Shown one piece after another: positions 4,157-44,718 of a DNA stretch of 44,881 nt. The stretch's first letter is position 1; every line of letters starts with the position of its first letter. Where the stretch lies: sequence record PV730301.1. One strand, 5' to 3'. Source of the DNA: a phage. The position numbers were made by a program, and so were the translations under genes. The notes below the pieces were generated by a model. That model saw nothing but the letters and a program-made list of their open reading frames with translations, ran no database searches and was not told the origin of the DNA.

Positions 4157-4161
4157 AACTA

Positions 4162-4184
4162 AGGCCCCGAAAGGGGCCTTTTTC
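4162..4184. terminator. rho-independent terminator (bidirectional position)
   Basis: AGGCCCC-GAAA-GGGGCCT hairpin followed by TTTTT; sits between convergent plus and minus operons. Confidence 0.7.
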
Positions 4185-6130: not shown

Positions 6131-6160
6131 TTTAAACTCCTTCATTGTTGGTGTAAGTGA

Positions 6161-6189
6161 ATAGTACCCTATTATATTGGGGTGCGCAA
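6161..6189 (-). promoter_or_regulatory. sigma70-like promoter for the Imm/phosphoesterase operon (TTGCGC-17-TACTAT) containing the conserved TGAATAGT..CTATTATA element
   Basis: Hexamers and 17-bp spacing read from the sequence; the 23-mer is identical to 41997..42019. Confidence 0.45.
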
Positions 6190-6296
6190 GTAGTGTGCTA
6201 GAATAAGTTTGCGCCTAGTGTCGCACACGAAAAGCGGGTGGTTCCCGTCTGGCGCATTAACCTTAACCTGTAACCTCTTAACCAAAGGATTAAAGA

Positions 6297-15702: not shown

Positions 15703-15724
15703 AAGGCCCCGAACGGGGCCTTTT
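15703..15724. terminator. rho-independent terminator after the tailspike
   Basis: GGCCCC-GAAC-GGGGCC hairpin plus TTTT; near-identical to the terminator at 4162..4184. Confidence 0.7.
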
Positions 15725-26054: not shown

Positions 26055-26083
26055 ACTATAATAGCAAACTATTCACATGTCAA
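26055..26083 (-). promoter_or_regulatory. sigma70-like early promoter (TTGACA-17-TATAGT) with the conserved element
   Basis: Hexamers read from the sequence; a second weaker copy (TTGATA-17-TAATTA) at about 26099..26127. Confidence 0.5.
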
Positions 26084-26147
26084 TGGGCTTTTCTAAAATA
26101 ATTAATATGGTACTATTCACATATCAACCGACTAAGGAGTAATTGAC

Positions 26148-26380: not shown

Positions 26381-28621
26381 CTATTCCAAATCTTCCTCGG
26401 TCACTATCAGCATCTCATTCGGTTCGTATATTGTCTTTGGTCTTAATCTGTCACCCATCTTTTCCGGTATACGGTATGTACCGGGGATAACCTCGCCGTT
26501 AGCATCACATCCTAGCATCAACTCACCGTCTTTCAGCATCTTCTCGAGATGGTGGTTAGTGATGGCATGGTCACCCGAGTTCGATACTATCTGCCGTTGG
26601 GTAAAACCTCGTCCGGTGTCGTCAGACTGTTGCAGGTCTTCCAGCGCGGCGAGTATGGATTCCTTCCTTCCTTCATCCTTCCCACGTTTTACGGCATTCT
26701 TTACGTTTTCTTTACCTTCCTTTGTCATCCCTTCTTCCCGCTCTTTCTCCTCGTCAGTTTTGAACGGCTCGAAGCCCCACGGCATCAGCACAAGCGCCTT
26801 GTGCGGTTCCGGCAGGTCGAGGTTTACGATTGTGCCGTATTCCTCTGTGCTACCGAGGAACTCAACCGCACGGTACTCTTTCGGTGGTGGCGCTTCACGG
26901 AACTGTACCGACTCCAGCACCATGCCAACCGTCTTCTGTTGAGGGCCATGCTTAAATTTCGAGTGGTATACGTTTATCTGACGGTCGGTCGCACGCTCAA
27001 TTGTCAGTTCTACGTCAACGCCCGCGTACAGCGCCCCACTGCCACGGGCTTTCTTGCCACCCTTCGGCGTGTGGTGAACAACGCCTACCGCGGCTTTAGT
27101 TGCGTCACGTACTTCTTTCAGGATGGCGATAACTTTACCCATACCGATTGCCGTTGATGAGCTGTTCTCGTCGAACTTATCAATCGTCAGGGCCAGGGTC
27201 TGGTTAAGGGTGTCGAACGCGACCATGCCGATAGGTTCATCACCTGCAGTTTCGCGCATCAGCTTAATCAGGTTTCTCAGTTTCCCGACTTCGCCCATGT
27301 CGATAACATGTACATAATCTTTACCTTCCTCGCCATATTTAGCCGCGAGCGCGTCGATACGTGTGCGGGTAGCCGCGCCACCTTCACCATCAATATAGAA
27401 GTGATGGCAACGCTGGGTATCCGCCCCTGCGAACCGGTATCCGGCGGCGCTAAGGTACATCATCCCGAGCGTATAAAACGATTTGTACGTGCCGGATTCT
27501 CCGACAATATCCCAGATGCAATCAGACGGCATGTACCCCTCGACGACGAAATCAGCCTTTACCGGTTCCGGTAACTCGTCCTCCTCTGAGTCTTCGTCGT
27601 CTTCCAGGTCGTCGAGACTGCATGAAACTGATTCACGCGCACCCCACCCGATAGCCTCGGCGACTTCACTGAACGGAAGCCCGGTCGCGTCGCACGCGTA
27701 CTTCCACACCTCTTTCGGGGACATGCCTTCGGTTGCCGTAATGTCGGTGTCGTGAATCATGGTTACGTTCGGCGCTTCGTATCCCTCGCGCGGGAAACAC
27801 AGAAGGAAGTCGTCCGGGCGCGGGGTCGGGTCGCTGTAGTTTTCTGCGTGTTCCGGCGTAGCTGGCATCTTAAGGCCGCGCGGCGTCATGACGCCCCCAT
27901 ACTCGAACGCCAGGGATTCGAACGCATCTGTAAACGCGGTGCGCAGTTCTTCCGGTATCTGATAATCCGATGCGCTGCTAACATCAACGGCGGGGATACC
28001 TTCCAGTAACTCGTCCGGGTCAATTAGGTCGTTGCGACGCGACCAGATAACAGTAGAGCCAACCGGCGGCAGATACATCGGCTGCGACAGAGTAAACCCG
28101 CTTCGGTCAGCACCCATGCCTTTGAAGAAATGCTCCAGTAATCCATGACGAACGCGGATGATGTCGCCGCCTTCAACCGGGCGAGCCAGCGGCATGACGA
28201 CACGGAACCGCGGTGACTCTTCGGTATGTGATGCCGTGGTGTAAAGGCACACCGCCTGGCGGCTACGCTTAACCAGGCGCACCGCTTCCTGATACTCTTC
28301 CGGTGTTGCACTGTCAAAGTCTAGATACGCCAGCGACGATTTGCTTACAGACGCATCGCAGCGATAGAAGAAGCCTTTACGCGCTTGCTTAAAGTCACCT
28401 GTTTCCGGGTCTTTTACGGTGCTGTGCGTAGCGTCACACGCGGCGGTGATATACCCCGGCGCGGTCTTCGGGTTAATTCCGCCACGAACGGCATCAAGCG
28501 GCTGGATTAACTCTTTCAGGTCGTCCAGTGTTGCCGTGTGTGTGGTTCTGACGTTTATATCCTTTTTCTCTGCCCGCGCGTTGCGACGTGACCACGAGTA
28601 GGATAAAATTACATCGGACAT
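26381..28621 (-). CDS. primase/helicase (N-terminal primase-like domain plus RecA-like AAA_25 domain)
   Basis: RecA-like region FYIDGEGG...VVHHTPKGGK; start at ATG 28621 (track gives a GTG at 28663); C-terminal VTEEDLE tail. Confidence 0.65.
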   Translation of the reverse strand: MSDVILSYSWSRRNARAEKKDINVRTTHTATLDDLKELIQPLDAVRGGINPKTAPGYITAACDATHSTVKDPETGDFKQARKGFFYRCDASVSKSSLAYLDFDSATPEEYQEAVRLVKRSRQAVCLYTTASHTEESPRFRVVMPLARPVEGGDIIRVRHGLLEHFFKGMGADRSGFTLSQPMYLPPVGSTVIWSRRNDLIDPDELLEGIPAVDVSSASDYQIPEELRTAFTDAFESLAFEYGGVMTPRGLKMPATPEHAENYSDPTPRPDDFLLCFPREGYEAPNVTMIHDTDITATEGMSPKEVWKYACDATGLPFSEVAEAIGWGARESVSCSLDDLEDDEDSEEDELPEPVKADFVVEGYMPSDCIWDIVGESGTYKSFYTLGMMYLSAAGYRFAGADTQRCHHFYIDGEGGAATRTRIDALAAKYGEEGKDYVHVIDMGEVGKLRNLIKLMRETAGDEPIGMVAFDTLNQTLALTIDKFDENSSSTAIGMGKVIAILKEVRDATKAAVGVVHHTPKGGKKARGSGALYAGVDVELTIERATDRQINVYHSKFKHGPQQKTVGMVLESVQFREAPPPKEYRAVEFLGSTEEYGTIVNLDLPEPHKALVLMPWGFEPFKTDEEKEREEGMTKEGKENVKNAVKRGKDEGRKESILAALEDLQQSDDTGRGFTQRQIVSNSGDHAITNHHLEKMLKDGELMLGCDANGEVIPGTYRIPEKMGDRLRPKTIYEPNEMLIVTEEDLE

Positions 28622-28680
28622 GTTGTATATTCCTTCAGCAAGTAATTTGGCCTCGGCGTTCACCGCGTCGGGGCTTTCTT

Positions 28681-28914
28681 TTATTCCAGGTCTTCTAAAG
28701 TGGCCGTCATTCCGCGAACTTCAGCAACGGCACTATATTTCCCGCCAACATTTTTCACGACACCGGATTTAACCAGTACACGTAACGACCCTTCAATGAT
28801 GGCGGAACTATAGTACTTAAAATAACTACGGCGCAAGTCGATAACGCTGCACGACCCTTTTTTACGTGTTAACGAAACGACCGCCGTAAATACGCGTGAC
28901 TGGAACTCGGTCAT
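28681..28914 (-). CDS. hypothetical protein with C-terminal TLEDLE tail
   Basis: ATGA coupling to the upstream AlpA-like gene. Confidence 0.5.
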   Translation of the reverse strand: MTEFQSRVFTAVVSLTRKKGSCSVIDLRRSYFKYYSSAIIEGSLRVLVKSGVVKNVGGKYSAVAEVRGMTATLEDLE

Positions 28915-29081
28915 TTCACGTTCTCCTTAATCCACGCTTCCACTTTCTCCGGGTCGAACGTACCTGGCTGGCGGCGGCCCATAATGCGAATACAACAATC
29001 GGGGAACTTCCCACTCTTTAACCAGTTATTCAGTGTGCGGCGAGTAACCCCGATACGCTCAGCTACTTCATTCTGTGTCAT
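28911..29081 (-). CDS. AlpA/excisionase-family HTH regulator
   Basis: MTQNEVAERIGVTRRTLNNWLKSGKFP matches the AlpA-type HTH; start placed at ATG 29081. Confidence 0.6.
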   Translation of the reverse strand: MTQNEVAERIGVTRRTLNNWLKSGKFPDCCIRIMGRRQPGTFDPEKVEAWIKENVK

Positions 29082-29113
29082 TCTCAAACCCCCATTATCA
29101 GTTAACGAAACCA

Positions 29114-29142
29114 AGTATACATTGTGAATAATGGGAAATCAA
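29114..29142 (-). promoter_or_regulatory. sigma70-like promoter (TTGATT-17-TATACT) for the AlpA-primase operon
   Basis: Hexamers read from the sequence; spacer carries an ATTATTCACA variant of the conserved element. Confidence 0.45.
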
Positions 29143-29511
29143 ACATAATCGCACCTATTGACATTATGAAAATCTTCGTTTAAGGTGCTTCTGTATCTTA
29201 GTTACTTTGATTCCTGTTCACCTTGTAAGAATGTTTAACCCGTGCGTCAAGCAAAGGGTTAAACACAGGCTTACTGAACATTCGAATTATCGTAACTTTC
29301 CTTCCTTAGTATCTCAGGTTGCCCTGGGCAAGCTCTATTCTCATCGGCAGCTTATCTCTTAAGTATCTGATTTTCTTAATGTGCCGTAGATTCGCAACCG
29401 TAAAAATGTAACGATTATTGGGCAGGCTTAAGGCCTGCCCTTTAGTTACCAAGTAATAAGAATAAAGGCACAACCATCCCTGAAAAATCACAACGGCAAC
29501 GTAACCATCTC

Positions 29512-29540
29512 TTGCACACCCCGACATAATAGGATACTAT
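29512..29540 (+). promoter_or_regulatory. sigma70-like promoter (TTGCAC-17-TACTAT) with the conserved element
   Basis: Hexamers read from the sequence; same architecture at 30871..30899. Confidence 0.5.
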
Positions 29541-29568
29541 TCACTTATCAAAACGAAACCGAGGAGCG

Positions 29569-29766
29569 ATGGTTATGTTTAAGAAGGGTCAATTGGCTAA
29601 AACTAAACGTGGAGGGCAATATGTATTAGTGTTGCAGGACTAGAACGAGTATGACCAGGATAATCTGGTTGACGTATGGGGTCTGGTAAGAAAGAAAACT
29701 GGGTTCGCCTTACGCGATAATTTAGAACTCATCGGCAACAATTTTAAATTCAAAGGGGTGAAGTGA
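29569..29766 (+). pseudogene. small ORF interrupted by an in-frame TAG at 29641 (amber allele, readthrough or sequencing error)
   Basis: GAGGAG RBS; 24 codons, TAG, then 40 more codons ending in TGATG coupling to the next gene. Confidence 0.35.
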
Positions 29767-29969
29767 TGGAAGAATTATTTGAAGAACTGAAACATCATAG
29801 ACTAGAGAAGGTGCATTTCCAGGTAAACAGATACGAGGTTGTTTTGCTAGACGGCCCGACTATTTCTTCCGGGACATGTGGGCTCTTGTTGAAAGTTTTA
29901 CGTGCGCTCCGAACGGCATCGAATCATGATGCTCGTGCCGACGACTCTGAGGGAGGTTGCCGTGAATAA
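29766..29969 (+). CDS. hypothetical protein
   Basis: AGGGGTGA RBS; ORF. Confidence 0.5.
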   Translation: MEELFEELKHHRLEKVHFQVNRYEVVLLDGPTISSGTCGLLLKVLRALRTASNHDARADDSEGGCRE

Positions 29970-30135
29970 TATTTTAATTGTGGGGGTTGGTATGAGAGAA
30001 GCATTTGAGCGGTGGGCCGTCGTCGAGGGTCTGCCGGTTAACAAGGGTTCAAAGAAAGAGTACCTGAACGTTAAGACGCGTCTCGCGTGGCGGGCGTGGA
30101 AAGCTGGTGTGCAAGCTGTGATGAATAAGGGGTGA
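29962..30135 (+). CDS. hypothetical protein (GTG start)
   Basis: GGGAGG RBS 5 nt before GTG 29962. Confidence 0.4.
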   Translation: MNNILIVGVGMREAFERWAVVEGLPVNKGSKKEYLNVKTRLAWRAWKAGVQAVMNKG

Positions 30136-30138
30136 GAT

Positions 30139-30444
30139 ATGAGCGAAGAACTTAAAGCATTTTATAAAGCCTACGCTGCGTGGCTCGATGCTGGTGCGGT
30201 TAACAATGGCGTATTCACATGTTGCACCGGACTATGCTTCGCATTACATAAATGGGCAGGCGATAAAGGTTACAACCTCCGCGCTCTGCGCCTGGAGTTG
30301 AAAGCACAGTTTACCAACGCCGGGTTAGATTCGGGCTACCCGTTTAACCACGGCGAACGCAACTATGACGTTGAGTGCGACGATGAAACAATCCACCTAA
30401 ATCCGGCGCGCATCGCCTGGGTACGTAAACACGCGACTGATTGA
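30139..30444 (+). CDS. hypothetical protein
   Basis: AAGGGGTGAG RBS; ORF. Confidence 0.5.
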   Translation: MSEELKAFYKAYAAWLDAGAVNNGVFTCCTGLCFALHKWAGDKGYNLRALRLELKAQFTNAGLDSGYPFNHGERNYDVECDDETIHLNPARIAWVRKHATD

Positions 30445-30521
30445 TATGTGTAACCAGACGACAGCCCTGCTGCTATTCTGAGCCTGGTAAAGTATTAACT
30501 TAGTAATAGAGGACTTGATAA

Positions 30522-30722
30522 ATGAGCGAGTGGGTTAAGTGCCGCGACAGGATGCCGGAATGTTTTACGGATGTGCTGGTTTCTGACGGTTCCTATGTAG
30601 AAGTTATGACGCTGCTTGGCGACGGCACCTGGCTTGCGCTGCTGGGGGATTGGGCTACATGTGTTTCTGTTGACAGGATAACTCACTGGATGCCGTTACC
30701 CGAGCTGCCACCCCCGGTATAA
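30522..30722 (+). CDS. DUF551-like protein
   Basis: W..C.D..P....VLV.DG......HWMPLPELPPP pattern typical of DUF551; AGAGGA RBS. Confidence 0.55.
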   Translation: MSEWVKCRDRMPECFTDVLVSDGSYVEVMTLLGDGTWLALLGDWATCVSVDRITHWMPLPELPPPV

Positions 30723-30755
30723 CAGGTCAATAGGTTACTATTTGGCTTTGTGTCT

Positions 30756-30790
30756 TACGCTGCTACACAGCAGCGTATCATTTTTCTCAT
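30756..30790 (+). terminator. rho-independent terminator
   Basis: 9-bp stem TACGCTGCT/AGCAGCGTA followed by a T-rich tract. Confidence 0.6.
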
Positions 30791-30870
30791 TTTTGTTCTA
30801 TTTCACCAAACGCAACAATCGAAGCGACTATTGCAGGAGATGAAACAATACAAACACCAATAAAATTTAC

Positions 30871-30899
30871 TTGCACACCTGGATATAATAGCCTACTAT
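30871..30899 (+). promoter_or_regulatory. sigma70-like promoter (TTGCAC-17-TACTAT) with the conserved element
   Basis: Hexamers read from the sequence. Confidence 0.5.
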
Positions 30900-30930
30900 T
30901 CATTTACACAAACGAGAGGAGAGACAGAAG

Positions 30931-31080
30931 ATGGTTACTTTGATGGTTATGGAGTTTGAAAACAGCGCAGCAACTTATCGCGAGATGACTATGGCGCAGG
31001 CGTATCACCTGGCTTCAAACGGCAACTTCTACAAGGCTCAAATCATCAATGAGTTCGGGGTAATTGACTATGAATTTTAG
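30931..31080 (+). CDS. hypothetical small protein (49 aa)
   Basis: GAGAGGAGAGA RBS; below the ORF-track length cutoff. Confidence 0.4.
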   Translation: MVTLMVMEFENSAATYREMTMAQAYHLASNGNFYKAQIINEFGVIDYEF

Positions 31081-31342
31081 CAGCTACACCGTTACCGTTG
31101 ATTTTGAGGGGCTGGAATTGCCCCTCCCAAACAACTATCGGTATATAACCCGTGACCGTTTCGGTTTTATTCAGGGGTGGCGGAACAAACCGACAGACAC
31201 TGAGTTCGGAATGTCAGGCGGAGAAGAGTTGCCGATCACTTTCGGGCATCAGAGTAGCAGCGAAGAGCTTAAAACTGTGATTCGTAAGTATCGCCGCCGC
31301 GGTAACACCGGGCTTATAGCGATAACAGGTGCTGTTGAATAA
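31070..31342 (+). CDS. hypothetical protein
   Basis: ORF; start at ATG 31070. Confidence 0.45.
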   Translation: MNFSSYTVTVDFEGLELPLPNNYRYITRDRFGFIQGWRNKPTDTEFGMSGGEELPITFGHQSSSEELKTVIRKYRRRGNTGLIAITGAVE

Positions 31343-31361
31343 ACGAGAGGAGAGAAGGAAG

Positions 31362-31580
31362 ATGTTCCTGGAATGTAAATCCTACGATGGCTATTGGGCG
31401 CTGACTAAAAACGACCTGTACCACCTCAAAGAAGACGGCGATGAGAGCCGCTGCTACATAATAGACGACAACGGCACTGAACTTGATGTCTATTACACTG
31501 GCTACGGCCAATGGGCGCTATCCGCGGACGATGACTTTGTGTTTGAAGAATATAACGGGGAGGAGCCAGAAGATGAGTAG
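31362..31580 (+). CDS. hypothetical acidic protein
   Basis: GAGAGGAGAGAAGGAAG RBS nearly identical to that at 30911. Confidence 0.5.
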   Translation: MFLECKSYDGYWALTKNDLYHLKEDGDESRCYIIDDNGTELDVYYTGYGQWALSADDDFVFEEYNGEEPEDE

Positions 31581-32082
31581 CAAAAACGAAGTATTCGAGT
31601 ACCTGATTGACCAGTTACGGAAGCAGGTAAATAACAACCCGTACAAGCAGCAGTGCGAAGACCTGGCGCACGAGGTGCAGTCACTTAAGAATCAGTTACG
31701 TGACGCGTCGGCGCTGGTGGCTGAGTTACAAGAGACGATAAAACTAATGAACGAGGACTTTAACCGCGTCACAAACCGCGGCGGCCCGCTGCCGAAAGGG
31801 GTGAGCTACGTAGTGGGTGAGCACGGGCCTGAGCAATCCGGTTGCCGTAAAGAGGGCGCACAGGAGTGCGAGCACTCATGGATTATTATGCCTGGGTTGT
31901 TTCTCAGTGAAGGCAATCCGGACAACGTTCCCGGTAGCGAGCTTTGTTCTAAATGCGGTAAACGTGAGTGGGACGACGAGGAATATAAACCGAAAAATGA
32001 TACATCGGAATGCGAGCACGAATGGCAATTTTACGGAGTCGGGTTTCCATGTATGTACCTTAAATGCGGGCTAAAGAAATGA
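31573..32082 (+). CDS. coiled-coil protein with C-terminal Cys-rich zinc-ribbon-like region
   Basis: GGGGAGGAG RBS; CEHSW...CSKCGK...CEHEW...CMYLKCG cysteine pairs. Confidence 0.5.
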   Translation: MSSKNEVFEYLIDQLRKQVNNNPYKQQCEDLAHEVQSLKNQLRDASALVAELQETIKLMNEDFNRVTNRGGPLPKGVSYVVGEHGPEQSGCRKEGAQECEHSWIIMPGLFLSEGNPDNVPGSELCSKCGKREWDDEEYKPKNDTSECEHEWQFYGVGFPCMYLKCGLKK

Positions 32083-33041: not shown

Positions 33042-33478
33042 CTACTATCGCGTTCGACGGAAAGACAATGGCCTGTGATACCCGTGTTGTGTGCGGAAGT
33101 AACTGCTACAACACAGACATAAAGATATACGAGAATGATACTTATGTTATAGGGGTAGCGGGTGACGCTGGAGTTGGCACTATGCTTATCGATTGTCCGG
33201 GTATTCTTCGACCACAGCCCTACGACTTCGATTTCGAGGCCCTGGTGTTCGTGAAAGACACAGAAAAGGTGTATAAAGTCGCGTTTTATAAATCATGGGA
33301 TTGTGCACTTAGTTCGGTTATTCCAATTGCGGATAGCTTCGCCGCCGTGGGGTCTGGCTCGCCCTATGCGTTAGCCGCTATGGAATGCGGGTATTCGGCG
33401 CATGGTGGTGTAGCTGTTGCCTCGAAGTTCGACACTAACACCGGCGGCAAGATTATTACCAAACAACTATTAGGATAA
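33038..33478 (+). CDS. HslV/proteasome beta-like Ntn-hydrolase peptidase
   Basis: N-terminal MTTI (Thr nucleophile after Met removal), VIGVAGDAGVGTML and AAVGSGSPYALAA resemble HslV motifs. Confidence 0.65.
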   Translation: MTTIAFDGKTMACDTRVVCGSNCYNTDIKIYENDTYVIGVAGDAGVGTMLIDCPGILRPQPYDFDFEALVFVKDTEKVYKVAFYKSWDCALSSVIPIADSFAAVGSGSPYALAAMECGYSAHGGVAVASKFDTNTGGKIITKQLLG

Positions 33479-33537
33479 TTCCTACCCGTGGTATCCTCCA
33501 GTTACTGCATACTTAATACGCACCTGGAGGATTCATC

Positions 33538-41159: not shown

Positions 41160-41620
41160 TGATGGGCTTTTTCAAAGTAACTGATGTGCCGTCGCGTCGC
41201 GTAGTTCAGTATGCTCGCGTGTCTGGCTCTGGTGAGAACGTGGTGTTTATCGAAGATGAAAGTGTACTCGGTACACCAGTAGACGACATGCCGTTTGCGG
41301 ACAAGACCGGTATTGCGTTGCCTGCGGCGGGTATGCTTTACGAGATTCCGTATCTGGCGGACGCCGGTGACGTGTACTTCTCTTTGCAACCGCAGGACGC
41401 TGAACTGGCAGACGGCAGCGCAACTATCACTGTCGAAGTTAAGGCAGGCAAAGCACCCTATGCGCTGACCTGGTACAAAGACGGTAAGGAAGTGGTAAAC
41501 GCCCCGGAAGAGGCTCTGTCTCTGACGGTTAACGCCGCGGGCGAATACTTCGTTAAAGTTACCGATGCCGATGGTGTAGAGGCCGTGAGTAAGGCGGCGA
41601 AGGTCACTAAGCCAGAATGA
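41159..41620 (+). CDS. Ig-like domain protein
   Basis: C-terminal PYALTWYKDGKEV...GEYFVKVTDADG parallels the Ig-like region of the 44741 gene. Confidence 0.55.
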   Translation: MMGFFKVTDVPSRRVVQYARVSGSGENVVFIEDESVLGTPVDDMPFADKTGIALPAAGMLYEIPYLADAGDVYFSLQPQDAELADGSATITVEVKAGKAPYALTWYKDGKEVVNAPEEALSLTVNAAGEYFVKVTDADGVEAVSKAAKVTKPE

Positions 41621-41623
41621 TAA

Positions 41624-41651
41624 AAGGCCCCTTACGGGGCCTTAGATTTTT
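41624..41651. terminator. rho-independent terminator between convergent genes
   Basis: AAGGCCCC-TTAC-GGGGCCTT hairpin followed by ATTTTT. Confidence 0.65.
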
Positions 41652-41956
41652 CCTATTAGTTTTTTAATTCTATCGCGTTCTATTCTTTTCCCTTCTTCTA
41701 CTCCATCATTGAAGTATCTTTCCGCGTCTTCCTTGTTGGACTTACGAACTGCTGCACCATCTCTATATAGCTCTTGATTGTCACGTAACACCCTAATCTT
41801 AGCTATTATTTCGTTAAAAGGTGCGTCAGCACGTACTTTAAGCATAGACCTTACCTGTTCTACGAACCAAGCAAAATCAGGCTTTTTCGCTAATTTCTCT
41901 CTTAAAACAGCGTTCTCTTGTTCCGCTTTTGTGGCGCGAGCACGATAATCAACCAT
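41642..41956 (-). CDS. hypothetical charged coiled-coil protein (lone minus-strand gene in the late region)
   Basis: ORF with its own promoter and terminator. Confidence 0.5.
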   Translation of the reverse strand: MVDYRARATKAEQENAVLREKLAKKPDFAWFVEQVRSMLKVRADAPFNEIIAKIRVLRDNQELYRDGAAVRKSNKEDAERYFNDGVEEGKRIERDRIKKLIGKI

Positions 41957-41999
41957 TTTAGTAAACCTCTATTTTTATTAAATAACACCGATGTGATGA

Positions 42000-42028
42000 A
42001 TAGTACCCTATTATATTGGTGTCTGCAA
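42000..42028 (-). promoter_or_regulatory. sigma70-like promoter (TTGCAG-17-TACTAT) with the conserved 23-mer
   Basis: Same 23-mer as at 6158..6180. Confidence 0.45.
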
Positions 42029-42094
42029 ACTATTTGTTTATGTATTCCAGTTATTCCACTCAATTGTAAATGTTGGAATAAACTATTCGAATAG

Positions 42095-42123
42095 TTGACT
42101 TTTCACTAAAAATGTGCTAAGCT
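42095..42123 (+). promoter_or_regulatory. candidate late promoter (TTGACT-17-TAAGCT with extended -10 TG) overlapped by a perfect 16-bp palindrome
   Basis: Hexamers read from the sequence; palindrome AACTATTCGAATAGTT at 42081..42096. Confidence 0.45.
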
Positions 42124-42303
42124 CCACCTGAGCTTGTGAAGTATGAACAAGCGACCGCGGCGCGGGCAGGTAACGGAGCGGGACGTAAGTCCTGAGTGTA
42201 GTTACGCTGACGCGTTCGGAAGGGCCACACTCTATTGCTTGTGTAAAAAGTAACTGGTTTACTGAGATTACGCCGTTTCTATGTTTAAATGATAAGGACT
42301 AGC

Positions 42304-42330
42304 GCCCCGCTTTATGGCGGGGCTTTACTT
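42304..42330 (+). terminator. leader terminator/attenuator directly upstream of the spanin gene
   Basis: GCCCCGC-TTTATG-GCGGGGC hairpin followed by TTTACTT, 18 nt before the RBS. Confidence 0.5.
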
Positions 42331-42347
42331 ATCGAGAAAGGAGAAAC

Positions 42348-42734
42348 ATGAATCTTAAAGCAACTGTCGTAGCGGGAGCATGTTTCATCATCCTGGCTTA
42401 CGCACACGGCATCTACCAGTATCGCAGCGGCTGGAACGAAGGCCGGGCGAATCTCGTTTCGCAGCAACAGCAGAAAGCACAGGCTGAGTTCGCGAAGAAA
42501 ACACAACGGCAGCAGCAGGATGAATCAAAGGCAGCCGCCGCTGACAACGAAGGTAAGACGAAATCAGAGGTGATTACCCGTGAAGTCGTTAAGTACATTA
42601 GAACGCCTGGTCGCAGCGTGTGCACTTTTGACCCTGAGCGCGTGCAGCTCAAGTCCCGCGCCGTCGCAAACGCCAATTCCATCCCCGGATACGACGATGA
42701 TGCAGCCGCCGTGCAAACTGGCGCCGCCAAGTAG
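42348..42734 (+). CDS. i-spanin (Rz-like)
   Basis: N-terminal TM helix, Gln/Ala-rich coiled coil, AAGGAG RBS, embedded +1 frame lipoprotein ORF. Confidence 0.7.
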   Translation: MNLKATVVAGACFIILAYAHGIYQYRSGWNEGRANLVSQQQQKAQAEFAKKTQRQQQDESKAAAADNEGKTKSEVITREVVKYIRTPGRSVCTFDPERVQLKSRAVANANSIPGYDDDAAAVQTGAAK

Positions 42735-42843
42735 CGACGCGGACGAGGATTTGGCTATCGACGTTCAGAATGCTGAATGTGTGCGGCAACTGCGCCTGAA
42801 GGTGTTCATGTTGCAGGATTACGTGAGGAATATTCTGGAATAG
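42580..42843 (+). CDS. o-spanin (Rz1-like lipoprotein)
   Basis: Signal peptide with lipobox LSAC; Pro-rich; overlaps the 3' end of the Rz gene in another frame. Confidence 0.7.
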   Translation: MKSLSTLERLVAACALLTLSACSSSPAPSQTPIPSPDTTMMQPPCKLAPPSSDADEDLAIDVQNAECVRQLRLKVFMLQDYVRNILE

Positions 42844-42925
42844 TTGCCTTGCATGTTGGAATAATTTATTCTTGACATGTAAATCCGGGTGGCCCGGGTT
42901 CCAACGTCCAGGGGACATACTGACT

Positions 42926-43630
42926 ATGAATCGTTTTTTACGTTATCCGTTCCAGGAAGAAGCTGGAGCAGAAGATAAAGCCGGTGGCGGTGACGCGCCG
43001 AAAATGTTCACCGCCGAAGAAGTTCAGGCGCTGATTGAGAAAGAAGTCGCCGGGCTTAAGGCTAATCAGGAAGCATTGCTGGCGGAGAAGAAAGAAGCCG
43101 CCCGCAAAGCAAAAGAGGCTGAAGAAGAACGGCAGCGCGCACACCAGGAGGCGTTAAAAGCCGCCGGTAAGATGGACGAGTTCGAAAAGACGATTCGTAG
43201 CCAGTATGACCCGGTGTTAGCCGAGAAAGATGGCCGCATCTCCAGAATGGCAGAGCGCATCCTCGGCAGCGAACGTAAAGCGGTGTTAGGCTCTTTCGCG
43301 GGTGACTTTATTACCCCGGAAGCAGTAGACATTCTTGCTCCGTTCGTTAAGACTGAGTTCGAAGGTGATGATGTGGTTACTAAGTTTGTTGGTGCAGATG
43401 GCAACGTAATCACGACTGACCCGGAACAGTTCCGCAAATACCTGCGCGAACACAAAGCGTTTTCGCATTTGATTAAAGCAAATGCAGCTTCCGGCGGCGG
43501 GGCTTCCGGTAGCAAAGGCGGCGGGGCCGCACCAGCGTTTAAAGACATGAGTGAAGCGGAGCGCATTGCTCTGTATGAATCGAACCCTGCCGAATTTGAA
43601 CGGCAACTTAAAGCCCTGAGGAAAAAATAA
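42926..43630 (+). CDS. capsid scaffolding protein
   Basis: Helical charged EAKR-rich protein immediately upstream of the major capsid gene; start at ATG 42926 (track begins at a TTG at 42872). Confidence 0.6.
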   Translation: MNRFLRYPFQEEAGAEDKAGGGDAPKMFTAEEVQALIEKEVAGLKANQEALLAEKKEAARKAKEAEEERQRAHQEALKAAGKMDEFEKTIRSQYDPVLAEKDGRISRMAERILGSERKAVLGSFAGDFITPEAVDILAPFVKTEFEGDDVVTKFVGADGNVITTDPEQFRKYLREHKAFSHLIKANAASGGGASGSKGGGAAPAFKDMSEAERIALYESNPAEFERQLKALRKK

Positions 43631-44679: not shown

Positions 44680-44695
44680 GGTTAAGCTATAATCG

Positions 44696-44718
44696 AGAGG
44701 GACTTCGGTCCCTCTTTT
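44696..44718 (+). terminator. rho-independent terminator after the major capsid gene
   Basis: GAGGGAC-TTCG-GTCCCTC hairpin followed by TTTT. Confidence 0.75.

What the first reader, a model, noticed from the sequence alone, without database searches (positions are those of the whole stretch)
42043..42347. Lambda PR'-like late promoter, structured leader and terminator directly upstream of the spanin/capsid operon
Seen in sequence: a promoter (TTGACT-17-TAAGCT, extended -10 TG) at 42095..42123, then a GC-rich leader of about 180 nt, then an intrinsic terminator (42304..42330) only 18 nt before the Rz ribosome-binding site. A perfect 16-bp palindrome AACTATTCGAATAGTT (42081..42096) overlaps the -35, and TATTCCA/TGGAATA repeats lie just upstream. 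Established knowledge: lambdoid late operons use a constitutive PR' promoter whose short transcript stops at tR' unless an antiterminator (Q) acts. Inference: late genes here may be controlled by antitermination or by an operator-bound regulator. The leader also holds a 36-codon Arg-rich ORF (42143..42253, MNKRPRRGQ...) that could be a leader peptide.
Basis: partly seen in the sequence, partly recalled or inferred. Interest (0 to 1): 0.65.

Follow-up and report, generated by a model that had tools for sequence, protein, structure and literature searches.

The report
Conserved leader RNA of phage late operon
A host-type promoter in this virulent E. coli phage makes a folded RNA of about 200 nt that heads the spanin/capsid/tail operon, keeps its shape across the Guernseyvirinae subfamily, matches no catalogued RNA family, and probably governs how RNA polymerase enters the late genes.

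Summary
The window is a near-complete Kagunavirus (Guernseyvirinae) genome.

The new result is that the leader is a conserved structured RNA. It has a 5' hairpin and a long irregular hairpin (core 42124-42245). Across three diverged lineages, 97.5% of pair cells are paired, against 29-41% in slid controls, and 10 pairs show compensatory changes. The lineages are P (this window, 181 phage records), J (Jerseyvirus, 269 records, about 50% identical) and S, a second copy at the early operon of some Kagunaviruses.

It has no Rfam match, no copy in E. coli genomes, and none in the nearest outgroup phages tested. The 36-codon ORF is not conserved. No Q- or N-like protein was found. The terminator's T-run is absent from the J and S types, so lambda PR'/tR' is an analogy only.

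My best reading is a cis-acting leader that modifies elongation or termination, as HK022 put RNA does, but unrelated to it. A trans-acting sRNA remains a serious rival. The near-identity to Salmonella phage SETP13 is a recombinant patch, not ultra-conservation.

The parts
41997..42028 (-). Divergent 'P2-family' promoter (TTGCAG-17-TACTAT-TCA) driving the leftward gene 41642-41956. It marks the left edge of the control region.
   Evidence: A 32-nt motif occurs 4 times in the window (6158, 29512, 30871, 41997) against 0.01 expected.
42043..42080 (.). Three GGAATA boxes: TATTCCA at 42043-42049 and 42052-42058 (the TGGAATA sequence is on the minus strand), and TGGAATA at 42074-42080. They are operator-like sites for an unidentified DNA-binding protein.
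   Evidence: The boxes are conserved in the P-type and J-type upstream regions, but are absent upstream of S-type copies.
42081..42096 (.). Perfect 16-bp palindrome AACTATTCGAATAGTT that overlaps the -35 hexamer by 2 bp.
   Evidence: The J-type has GGAATACTTTATTC instead, with the same half-sites at a different spacing.
42095..42123 (+). Extended -10 sigma70 promoter: TTGACT, 17 nt, TGcTAAGCT. The predicted transcription start is near 42130-42131.
   Evidence: conserved in the P, S and J types.
42124..42245 (+). Core of the structured RNA, as matched by the covariance models.
   Evidence: R1 scores 142.7 bits (E 5e-44) and R2 scores 136.8 bits. This is the only copy in the window.
42132..42152 (+). 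P1: 5'-terminal hairpin GCUUGU / ACAAGC with a 9-nt loop.
   Evidence: The J-type has a different hairpin, ACGCU-UUC-AGCGU, at the same position.
42155..42219 (+). P2: long irregular hairpin. Its helices are CCG/CGG, GGCGC/GCGUU, CAG/CUG and GUAAC/GUUAC. It has conserved internal loops GGAGC and UGAGUGUAG, and an apical hairpin GGGAC-GUAA-GUCCU at 42180-42193.
   Evidence: 10 pairs carry compensatory changes. 97.5% of cells are paired against 29-41% when the partners are slid.
42215..42237 (+). Motif that is invariant or nearly invariant in P, S and J types: UUCGGAAGGGCC ... CUAUUG. It is partly the 3' strand of P2 and partly single-stranded.
42246..42303 (+). Less conserved 3' half. It contains a candidate hairpin AGUAA-CUGGU-UUACU (42249-42263) and the motifs GAUUACGCCG (shared with J) and GUUUCUAUGUU (shared with S).
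   Evidence: Support for the structure here is weak.
42304..42332 (+). Terminal GC-rich hairpin GCCCCGC-UUUAU-GGCGGGGC followed by UUUACUUAU. In this window it is terminator-like.
   Evidence: Compensatory variants exist: GCCCUGC/GCAGGGC in the P-type copy of L012 and L054, and GCCCGAC/GUCGGGC in L075 (J). The hairpin is kept in J and S types without a T-run.
42143..42253 (+). 36-codon ORF. It is not a gene.
   Evidence: The reading frame is not conserved.
42339..42350 (+). Rz ribosome-binding site (AAGGAG) and start codon (42348). This is the first gene of the downstream operon, and no promoter lies between it and the RNA.
   Evidence: Spanin annotations in relatives.
42826..42864 (+). A second cluster of GGAATA boxes in direct repeat (42826, 42836, 42857) upstream of the scaffold gene. 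The same factor probably binds here.
   Evidence: 0.02 expected. The cluster is conserved in f18SE, which has four repeats.

Best explanation
The region is the restart promoter and structured 5' leader of the phage's major late transcription unit (Rz/Rz1, scaffold, capsid, connector and tail genes).

Shown or directly read from the sequence:
- A conserved extended -10 sigma70 promoter at 42095-42123.
- GGAATA boxes and a palindrome around its -35 hexamer.
- A transcript that begins with a conserved folded RNA: the P1 hairpin, the long P2 hairpin with invariant internal loops, the motif UUCGGAAGGGCC...CUAUUG, and a terminal GC hairpin 16 nt before the Rz ribosome-binding site.
- This RNA is a previously uncatalogued family found in the Guernseyvirinae phages examined.

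Inferred mechanism:
- A phage or host DNA-binding protein acting on the GGAATA boxes sets when the promoter fires.
- The nascent RNA folds and acts in cis on the transcription complex that made it.
- This lets the polymerase pass the hairpin/terminator at 42304-42332 and later terminators, such as 44695-44716 after the capsid gene and 4161-4180.
- The RNA would do this either by binding RNA polymerase directly, as HK022 put RNA does, or by recruiting a factor that is still unidentified.
- Polymerases that fail to be modified would stop at 42330, leaving a discrete RNA of about 200 nt.
For: The promoter is conserved in three lineages that are only about 50-57% identical over the element.

The RNA structure is well supported:
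- RNAalifold on an unfitted MAFFT alignment predicts P1 and the P2 helices.
- On the P+S alignment, 97.9% of cells are paired and 5 pairs are compensatory.
- On P+S+J, 97.5% are paired against 29-41% in slid controls, with 10 compensatory pairs, 91 compensatory cells and 0 of 500 shuffles reaching the observed value.

Its position argues for a leader:
- In all P and J genomes examined it lies on the coding strand directly upstream of Rz, with no promoter in between. It follows a terminator that ends the upstream operon.
- In J and S types the terminal hairpin has no T-run, so there the RNA must be the 5' end of a longer transcript.
- A subset of Kagunaviruses carries a second copy, promoter included, at the head of the rightward early operon. 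This echoes putL and putR at the heads of the two HK022 early operons (PMC9378689).

Other points:
- No antiterminator protein is recognisable.
- Terminators without recognisable following promoters lie inside the downstream operon.
- No alternative pairing links the core to the terminator arm, which argues against a riboswitch-type attenuator.
Against: - There is no experimental transcript data.
- S-type copies are followed about 100 nt later by an independent, conserved promoter (P2) for the downstream genes. In this window the same slot holds an unrelated promoter, roughly 250 nt of sequence, and a strong terminator (29159-29445). Both observations look more like a site for free-standing RNA genes.
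- The RNA has no detectable similarity to HK022 put.
- Leaky terminators inside phage late operons do not by themselves require antitermination.
- The structure-aware alignments A3 and A4 were fitted to the model, so the percentage paired leans towards the structure. The compensatory changes are nevertheless visible in the raw sequences.
Confidence: 0.4

Rival explanations
1. It is a free-standing, trans-acting small RNA gene. The promoter and the terminator (or processing at the terminal GC hairpin) yield a stable RNA of about 200 nt that acts on a host or phage target. Transcription into Rz is just leakage.
For: - In this window the unit has its own promoter and a terminator-like hairpin.
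- It has 5'- and 3'-terminal hairpins, which are typical of stable RNAs.
- S-type copies sit in an intergenic slot followed by a separate promoter for the downstream genes. Other phages, including this window, have a different promoter-RNA-terminator cassette in that slot.
Against: - The J and S types lack a T-run after the hairpin.
- The U tail is short and unlike those of Hfq-type sRNAs.
- Complementarity to phage mRNAs is no greater than chance: one 12-mer found against 0.9 expected.
- No similarity to E. coli sequences was found.
- In about 450 genomes no promoter separates the RNA from Rz, so read-through is required for late-gene expression.
Confidence: 0.28
2. It is a cis-acting 5' UTR element that works after transcription. 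It could be a processing site (RNase III or RNase E) or a stabiliser, or a platform that controls translation or stability of the late mRNA.
For: - The long irregular hairpin with internal loops resembles phage RNase III substrates. This rests on my own knowledge of T7 and lambda N-leader sites.
- The terminal GC hairpin lies 16 nt upstream of the Rz ribosome-binding site in both P and J types.
- A 5'-terminal hairpin can protect a transcript.
Against: - The invariant internal-loop sequences and the motif UUCGGAAGGGCC point to specific recognition rather than a generic double-stranded substrate.
- S-type copies are 130 nt or more from the next gene, with a promoter in between.
Confidence: 0.17
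3. This is the first reader's model: a lambda PR'/tR'-type module in which a phage Q-like or N-like protein loads at the promoter or leader and allows read-through late in infection.
For: The layout of promoter, leader and terminator directly before the late genes fits this model. Many early proteins have unknown function, so an unrecognised antiterminator cannot be excluded.
Against: - No Q or N family hit was found among the ten proteins tested, and none is annotated in Bas70.
- No conserved -10-like pause element is seen in the initially transcribed region across P, S and J types.
- The terminator T-run is not conserved.
- Lambda-type modules do not need a covarying 100-nt RNA fold.
Confidence: 0.08
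4. There is no RNA function. The conservation reflects DNA-level roles (operators, an origin, a homing-endonuclease target) or recent recombination, or the 36-aa peptide is the product.
For: The 93-99% identity to SETP13 is indeed a recombinant patch next to an endonuclease gene. Operator-like repeats are present.
Against: Compensatory base changes on ten pairs across lineages that are about 50% identical point to selection on an RNA or single-strand fold. The ORF is broken in many members.
Confidence: 0.05

Closest known systems
HK022 putL/putR RNAs (protein-independent processive antitermination)
   Same: - Both are cis-encoded RNAs built from two stem-loops that lie downstream of host-type promoters at the heads of phage operons.
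- Some genomes carry two related copies.
- No dedicated antiterminator protein is recognisable.
- Terminators lie downstream.
   Different: - No sequence or structure similarity was found: model R1 finds nothing in the HK022 PL-PR region.
- The core is about 95-120 nt, against about 70 nt for put.
- The host phage is virulent, not lambdoid.
- The second copy is followed by a further promoter.
- Binding to the RNA polymerase beta' zinc-binding domain is untested.
Lambda PR' - 6S RNA - tR' with Q antiterminator
   Same: Both have a promoter immediately before the late genes, a short leader (194 nt in lambda, about 200 nt here) and, in this window, an intrinsic terminator-like hairpin.
   Different: - No Q homologue was found.
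- There is no conserved sigma-dependent pause element.
- The terminator T-run is missing in most family members.
- The leader here is a covarying structured RNA.
Lambda N / nut (boxA-boxB) antitermination
   Same: In both, an RNA site in an operon leader contains a hairpin. Two copies occur in some genomes.
   Different: - No N-like arginine-rich protein was recognised.
- The CUAUUG motif does not match the boxA core GCUCUUUA.
- The hairpins are much larger than boxB.
Phage-encoded sRNAs and 5'UTR-derived sRNAs
   Same: Both have their own promoter, terminal hairpins and a length of about 200 nt.
   Different: No seed or target was found, the U tail is unlike Hfq-type tails, and most family members lack a terminator.

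Membership tests
Lambda-type PR'/tR'-Q late antitermination module | Sigma70 promoter directly upstream of the late genes | tested here: met
   An extended -10 promoter at 42095-42123 is conserved in the P, S and J lineages. It is a prediction, not a mapped start site.
Lambda-type PR'/tR'-Q late antitermination module | Intrinsic terminator a short distance downstream of the promoter | tested here: inconclusive
   The feature is present in this window. The homologous hairpin in J- and S-type members has no T-run and is not called by the same scan.
Lambda-type PR'/tR'-Q late antitermination module | Q-family antiterminator gene | tested here: not met
   No Q or antiterminator family was found among ten candidate proteins in Pfam or PHROGs. 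None is annotated in the close relative Bas70. Not every ORF of the window was scanned.
Lambda-type PR'/tR'-Q late antitermination module | Sigma70-dependent promoter-proximal pause element (a -10-like sequence in the initially transcribed region) and a Q-binding element | tested here: inconclusive
   No -10-like hexamer is conserved across P, S and J in the first 25 nt. A Q-binding element cannot be defined without a Q protein.
HK022 put RNA | Sequence and structure similarity to putL/putR | tested here: not met
   R1 run with filters off on HK022 27000-32000 gave a best score of 5.6 bits, E 1.9. Rfam gave no match in the window.
HK022 put RNA | Cis-encoded RNA with two stem-loops downstream of an operon promoter | tested here: met
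   P1 and P2 are supported by covariation and lie directly after the promoter.
HK022 put RNA | Protein-independent suppression of pausing and termination through the RNA polymerase beta' zinc-binding domain | not testable with these tools
   This needs in vitro transcription and rpoC mutants.
Lambda N/nut | A boxA (GCUCUUUA-like) plus a short boxB hairpin, and an N-like arginine-rich protein | tested here: not met
   The conserved motif is (N)CUAU(U/A)(U/C)UG, not boxA. No N-like protein was recognised.
Any Rfam 15 family | Score at or above the family's gathering threshold | tested here: not met
   There were 0 matches in the whole window. Only chance-level hits appeared at E up to 10 in 41600-43000.
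tRNA / tmRNA | ARAGORN detection | tested here: not met
   No tRNA or tmRNA genes were found in the window or in f18SE.
Small-protein (leader-peptide) gene | Reading frame conserved among homologues | tested here: not met
   The frame is broken by frameshifts and early stops in P and S types and is absent in J types. A 20-codon ORF spanning the terminator is interrupted by TAA in most P-type phages.
Hfq-type trans-acting sRNA | Rho-independent terminator with a long U tail, and a conserved single-stranded seed with targets | tested here: inconclusive
   The U tract is UUUACUUAU here and is absent in J and S types. Complementarity to the phage genome is no greater than chance. Host targets were not testable.

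The most novel reading that the evidence does not exclude
The RNA would be a second, evolutionarily independent class of protein-free, polymerase-binding antitermination RNA. It would be a functional analogue of HK022 put, used by a whole subfamily of virulent phages (Kagunavirus and Jerseyvirus, both used in phage therapy). Its role would be to license host RNA polymerase to transcribe the roughly 18-kb late operon. A portable promoter-plus-RNA cassette would also have been duplicated to the early operon in some members.
Probability: 0.25. Interest if true: 0.8.

Novelty: new variant of a known kind. Interest (0 to 1): 0.6.

Why it matters
Guernseyvirinae (Kagunavirus and Jerseyvirus) are among the E. 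coli and Salmonella phages most often isolated and engineered for therapy. They encode no RNA polymerase and no recognised antiterminator, and how they time gene expression is essentially unknown.

- A conserved, covarying RNA sits between the strongest late promoter and the capsid genes. It gives a concrete, testable handle on that regulation.
- If it acts on RNA polymerase, it would be only the second known class of RNA-only processive antiterminator.
- It would also be a compact part of about 100 nt for synthetic biology.
- If it acts in trans, it would be a new phage sRNA with an unknown host target.
- In either case, genome engineers who insert payloads near the capsid operon should avoid disrupting it.

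Tried and rejected
- **Rfam.** The gathering-threshold search on the whole window and the E-value search on 41600-43000 gave nothing relevant.
- **tRNA/tmRNA.** None was found. The 'tRNA-Ser' annotated in phage horsemountain lies on the other strand over the upstream terminator and is spurious.
- **Leader peptide.** The 36-aa ORF and a 20-aa ORF spanning the terminator are both unconserved.
- **Ultra-conservation, a reading I had to retract.** I first took the 93-99% identity to Salmonella phage SETP13, against 60-89% in the flanks, as ultra-conservation that implied a host target. A three-way comparison showed that SETP13 is Jerseyvirus-like everywhere except a patch of about 1.4 kb (L004:3000-4400). 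That patch is Kagunavirus-like and lies next to an endonuclease VII gene, so it is a recombinant patch. The true Jerseyvirus orthologue is only about 50% identical.
- **Homology to HK022 put.** None was found.
- **Copies in bacteria or plasmids.** There are none in 5,426 E. coli genomes. The only plasmid hit is a mis-filed 44-kb phage. The scan of one genome per species gave only chance hits and one phage fragment.
- **Copies beyond Guernseyvirinae.** The nearest capsid relatives, Kokobel2 and JWX (41-42% capsid identity), have no intergenic gap at the equivalent position and give no R2 hit. The metagenome pattern scan returned only P- and S-type Kagunavirus copies.
- **Riboswitch-type antiterminator/terminator alternative.** No pairing between the core and the 5' arm of the terminator is conserved. 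The CGGCG/CGCCG alternative seen in the MFE fold is broken in L059 and absent in the S type.
- **boxA-like reading of CUCUAUUG.** The variable positions are the ones boxA needs.
- **Antisense targets in the phage genome.** They are at chance level.
- **Literature.** Nothing was found on this RNA in Guernseyvirinae, Kagunavirus or Jerseyvirus papers. The one Kagunavirus RNA-seq paper reports annotated genes only.

Full report
**Context**

The window is a near-complete genome of a Kagunavirus (Guernseyvirinae), a group of virulent siphoviruses of E. coli. The 1.3 kb around the finding matches 196 phage records.

The gene order is terminase, portal, head-morphogenesis and Hoc-like genes on the plus strand. 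These end at a bidirectional terminator at 41624-41643. A small leftward gene follows (41642-41956). Then comes the finding's region, followed by Rz/Rz1 (42348-42843), scaffold, major capsid, and the connector and tail genes. The phage encodes no RNA polymerase, so host sigma70 polymerase must transcribe everything.

**Checking the observation**

- The promoter is TTGACT (42095-42100), 17 nt, then TAAGCT (42118-42123), with a TGn extension.
- The generic scan missed it because the -10 matches the consensus at only 3 of 6 positions.
- The three most important -10 positions, the TG extension, the spacing and the -35 hexamer are nevertheless kept in three lineages that have otherwise diverged to about 50% identity. 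That is better evidence than a consensus score.
- The stem-loop 42304-42323 plus TTTACTTATC is the best terminator-like site in the region.
- The 16-bp palindrome is exact and improbable by chance.
- TGGAATA is over-represented and clustered.
- The 36-codon ORF exists.

**What the leader is**

The noncoding segment recurs in 181 phage records at 95% identity or more. Three further observations changed the picture.

*A second, diverged copy ('S-type').* Some Kagunavirus genomes carry a second copy, 79-90% identical over the promoter and the first 110-120 nt. It lies about 10.6 kb upstream, between a divergent excisionase-like HTH gene and a conserved promoter of the rightward early genes.

*A much more diverged version ('J-type').* Typical Jerseyviruses such as f18SE carry this version at exactly the orthologous place, between the Hoc-like gene and Rz. 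A covariance model built only from P and S sequences finds it at 42.7 bits, E about 1e-11. 269 records carry it.

*Compensatory differences between the versions.*
- RNAalifold on a plain MAFFT alignment predicts a 5' hairpin (P1) and a long irregular hairpin (P2).
- On the model-guided alignment of P+S copies, 97.9% of pair cells are standard pairs, against 30-40% when the partners are slid by 1-3 columns. Five pairs have changes on both sides.
- Adding J-type copies gives 97.5% against 29-41%, with ten pairs and 91 cells carrying double changes. No shuffle in 500 reaches the observed covariation.
- Examples visible in the raw sequences:
  - the apical stem reads GGAC/GUCC, GUGC/GCAC, GGGC/GCCC, GUGCC/GGCAC, CACGU/ACGUG or GGGCG/CGCCC;
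  - pair 42161/42213 (alignment A4 columns 42/106) reads C-G, U-A or A-U;
  - pair 42171/42204 (A4 columns 53/94) reads U-A, A-U or G-C.
- Caveat: the alignments for searches were fitted to the model.

*What is conserved in all types.* The promoter, a 5'-terminal hairpin, P2 with its internal loops (GGAGC and GAGUGUAG, or close variants), the motif UUCGGAAGGGCC, a CUAU motif, and a terminal GC-rich hairpin. That hairpin itself shows compensatory variants.

*Where the family is and is not found.*
- The window has a single copy, at 42124-42245.
- There is no Rfam match and no tRNA/tmRNA call.
- There is no homologue in 5,426 complete E. coli genomes.
- Scans of one genome per bacterial species and of metagenomes gave only phage fragments.
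- The nearest non-Guernseyvirinae relatives have contiguous head genes and no match.
- The reading frames in the leader are not conserved.
- I found no paper describing this RNA.

**A correction worth recording**

The element is 93-99% identical between this E. coli phage and Salmonella phage SETP13, while the flanking genes are 60-89% identical. I first read this as extreme purifying selection.

A three-way comparison shows otherwise. SETP13 is 85-100% identical to Jerseyvirus f18SE everywhere except a patch of about 1.4 kb. The patch covers the 3' part of the Hoc-like gene, an endonuclease VII gene and the element. In that patch SETP13 is Kagunavirus-like.

The island is therefore a recombinant patch. 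It may have been spread by the adjacent homing-type endonuclease, which is my inference. The true cross-genus divergence of the element is about 50%, which is greater than that of the neighbouring genes, with the structure retained. This is the usual signature of a structured RNA. It removes the argument that the RNA must bind a host component.

**The terminator**

Only the P-type has a T-run after the terminal hairpin (UUUACUUAU). The J-type has UUAGCGUAU and the S-type has CUGCGUUGC. The same scan calls no terminator in either.

The feature conserved across the family is therefore a stable hairpin, not a canonical terminator. In most members the RNA must be the 5' end of a longer transcript. 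In P and J genomes no promoter lies between the RNA and Rz, so late-gene expression depends on polymerases that have transcribed the RNA.

**The promoter's surroundings**

- Upstream lie two TATTCCA boxes, an inverted GGAATA box and the palindrome. The boxes are conserved in the P and J types.
- Three to four phased direct repeats of GGAATA recur before the scaffold gene in both genera.
- They are absent upstream of the S-type copies.
- This looks like an operator array for a DNA-binding protein that co-ordinates late expression. The protein is unidentified.
- Two phage HTH proteins are candidates.
- The left part of the conserved intergenic region (41997-42028, minus strand) is one of four copies of a 32-nt phage promoter family. 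It drives the leftward gene.

**Mechanism**

I considered four kinds of mechanism.

*Cis-acting leader affecting elongation or termination (my preferred reading, about 0.4).*
- Points in favour:
  - It fits the invariable position at the head of operons on the coding strand.
  - It fits the lack of an intervening promoter in about 450 genomes.
  - It fits the missing T-run in most members.
  - The promoter-plus-RNA unit has been duplicated to a second operon.
  - No antiterminator protein is recognisable.
  - There are terminators inside the downstream operon.
- The closest precedent is HK022 put. It is a two-stem-loop RNA of about 70 nt, present in two copies downstream of PL and PR. It binds the polymerase that made it and suppresses termination without any protein (PMC9378689).
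- The present RNA is not a put homologue.

*Trans-acting RNA (about 0.28).*
- It is favoured by the promoter-plus-terminator bracket in this window.
- It is also favoured by the S-type context. There an independent promoter follows the RNA. In this window the same slot holds an unrelated promoter, about 250 nt and a strong terminator (29159-29445).
- Against it: the terminator is missing in most members, and no targets were found.

*Post-transcriptional 5' UTR role, meaning processing, stability or translation (about 0.17).* This cannot be excluded.

**Verdict**

It misses the main point, which is that the leader is a member of a new, well-supported structured RNA family of the Guernseyvirinae. 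Its function is not established. The experiments listed under next steps would settle it quickly, because these phages are easy to grow and engineer.

Noticed in passing
window 29159-29445 (+): A second promoter-RNA-terminator cassette lies between the excisionase-like HTH gene (28911-29081, minus strand) and the early promoter at 29512. It has TTGACA-17-TAAGGT, about 250 nt with hairpins, and a strong terminator GGGCAGGC-TTAA-GGCCTGCCC-TTT at 29420-29440. It occupies the slot where other Kagunaviruses carry the S-type copy of the leader RNA. It is unrelated to that RNA by the covariance model. It is present in about 400 phage records, at 72-80% identity in Jerseyviruses.
   Followed up: partly
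window 29512-29543 (+), 30871-30902 (+), 41997-42028 (-), 6158-6189 (-): A 32-nt phage-specific promoter family, TTGCRCACCCCAAYATAATAGGRTACTATTCA, occurs 4 times against 0.01 expected. The two minus-strand copies drive the two leftward modules embedded in the late operon. A related -10 and initially transcribed motif, ACTATTCACAT(G/A)TCAA, occurs twice at 26069-26128 next to the Cro/CI-like HTH gene.
   Followed up: partly
window 4161-4180, 15703-15722, 41624-41643: Three copies of the same bidirectional terminator, AAGGCCCC-N4-GGGGCCTT (0 expected). Two of them bound the leftward modules inserted in the late operon. Each of those modules is therefore framed by this terminator on one side and a P2-family promoter on the other.
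   Followed up: partly
window 6196-6296 (+): After the first leftward module, plus-strand transcription seems to restart from another extended -10 promoter (TGcTAGAAT, 6196-6204). A structured leader of about 90 nt follows (UGCGCC...GGCGCA) before the tail-chaperone gene. The architecture is the same as at 42095, but the sequence is unrelated.
   Followed up: no
window 42826-42900; L064 28296-28385 (-): Between Rz1 and the scaffold gene lie 3-4 phased direct repeats of (A/T)GGAATA. A hairpin follows, CCGGG-TGGC-CCGGG, extended to AUCCGGG/CCCGGGUU here and ACACCGGG/CCCGGUGU in f18SE, with compensatory changes between the genera. No good sigma70 -10 is present. This could be an activator-dependent promoter or a processing site.
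   Followed up: partly
L004 3000-4400 (Salmonella phage SETP13): A recombinant patch of about 1.4 kb is Kagunavirus-like in an otherwise Jerseyvirus genome. It covers the 3' part of the Hoc-like gene, an endonuclease VII gene and the P-type leader. The gene to the left of the leader differs between phages (HNH endonuclease, endonuclease VII, hypothetical proteins). This suggests a hotspot for homing-endonuclease insertion and co-conversion.
   Followed up: partly
window 33465-33480: AACTATTAGGATAATT is a near-copy (3 mismatches) of the palindrome. It lies just upstream of the holin gene (33538), with a TGGAATA box at 33319-33325. The lysis cassette may share the regulator.
   Followed up: no
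L065 1172-1249 (Salmonella phage horsemountain, NC_073171.1): A 'tRNA-Ser' is annotated on the minus strand over the end of the Hoc-like gene and its terminator. ARAGORN finds no tRNA in the equivalent f18SE sequence, so the annotation is probably spurious.
   Followed up: partly
plasmid collection, CP088689.1: A 44-kb 'plasmid' of a human blood E. coli isolate is a complete Kagunavirus genome carrying both leader copies. It is a phage filed as a plasmid.
   Followed up: no
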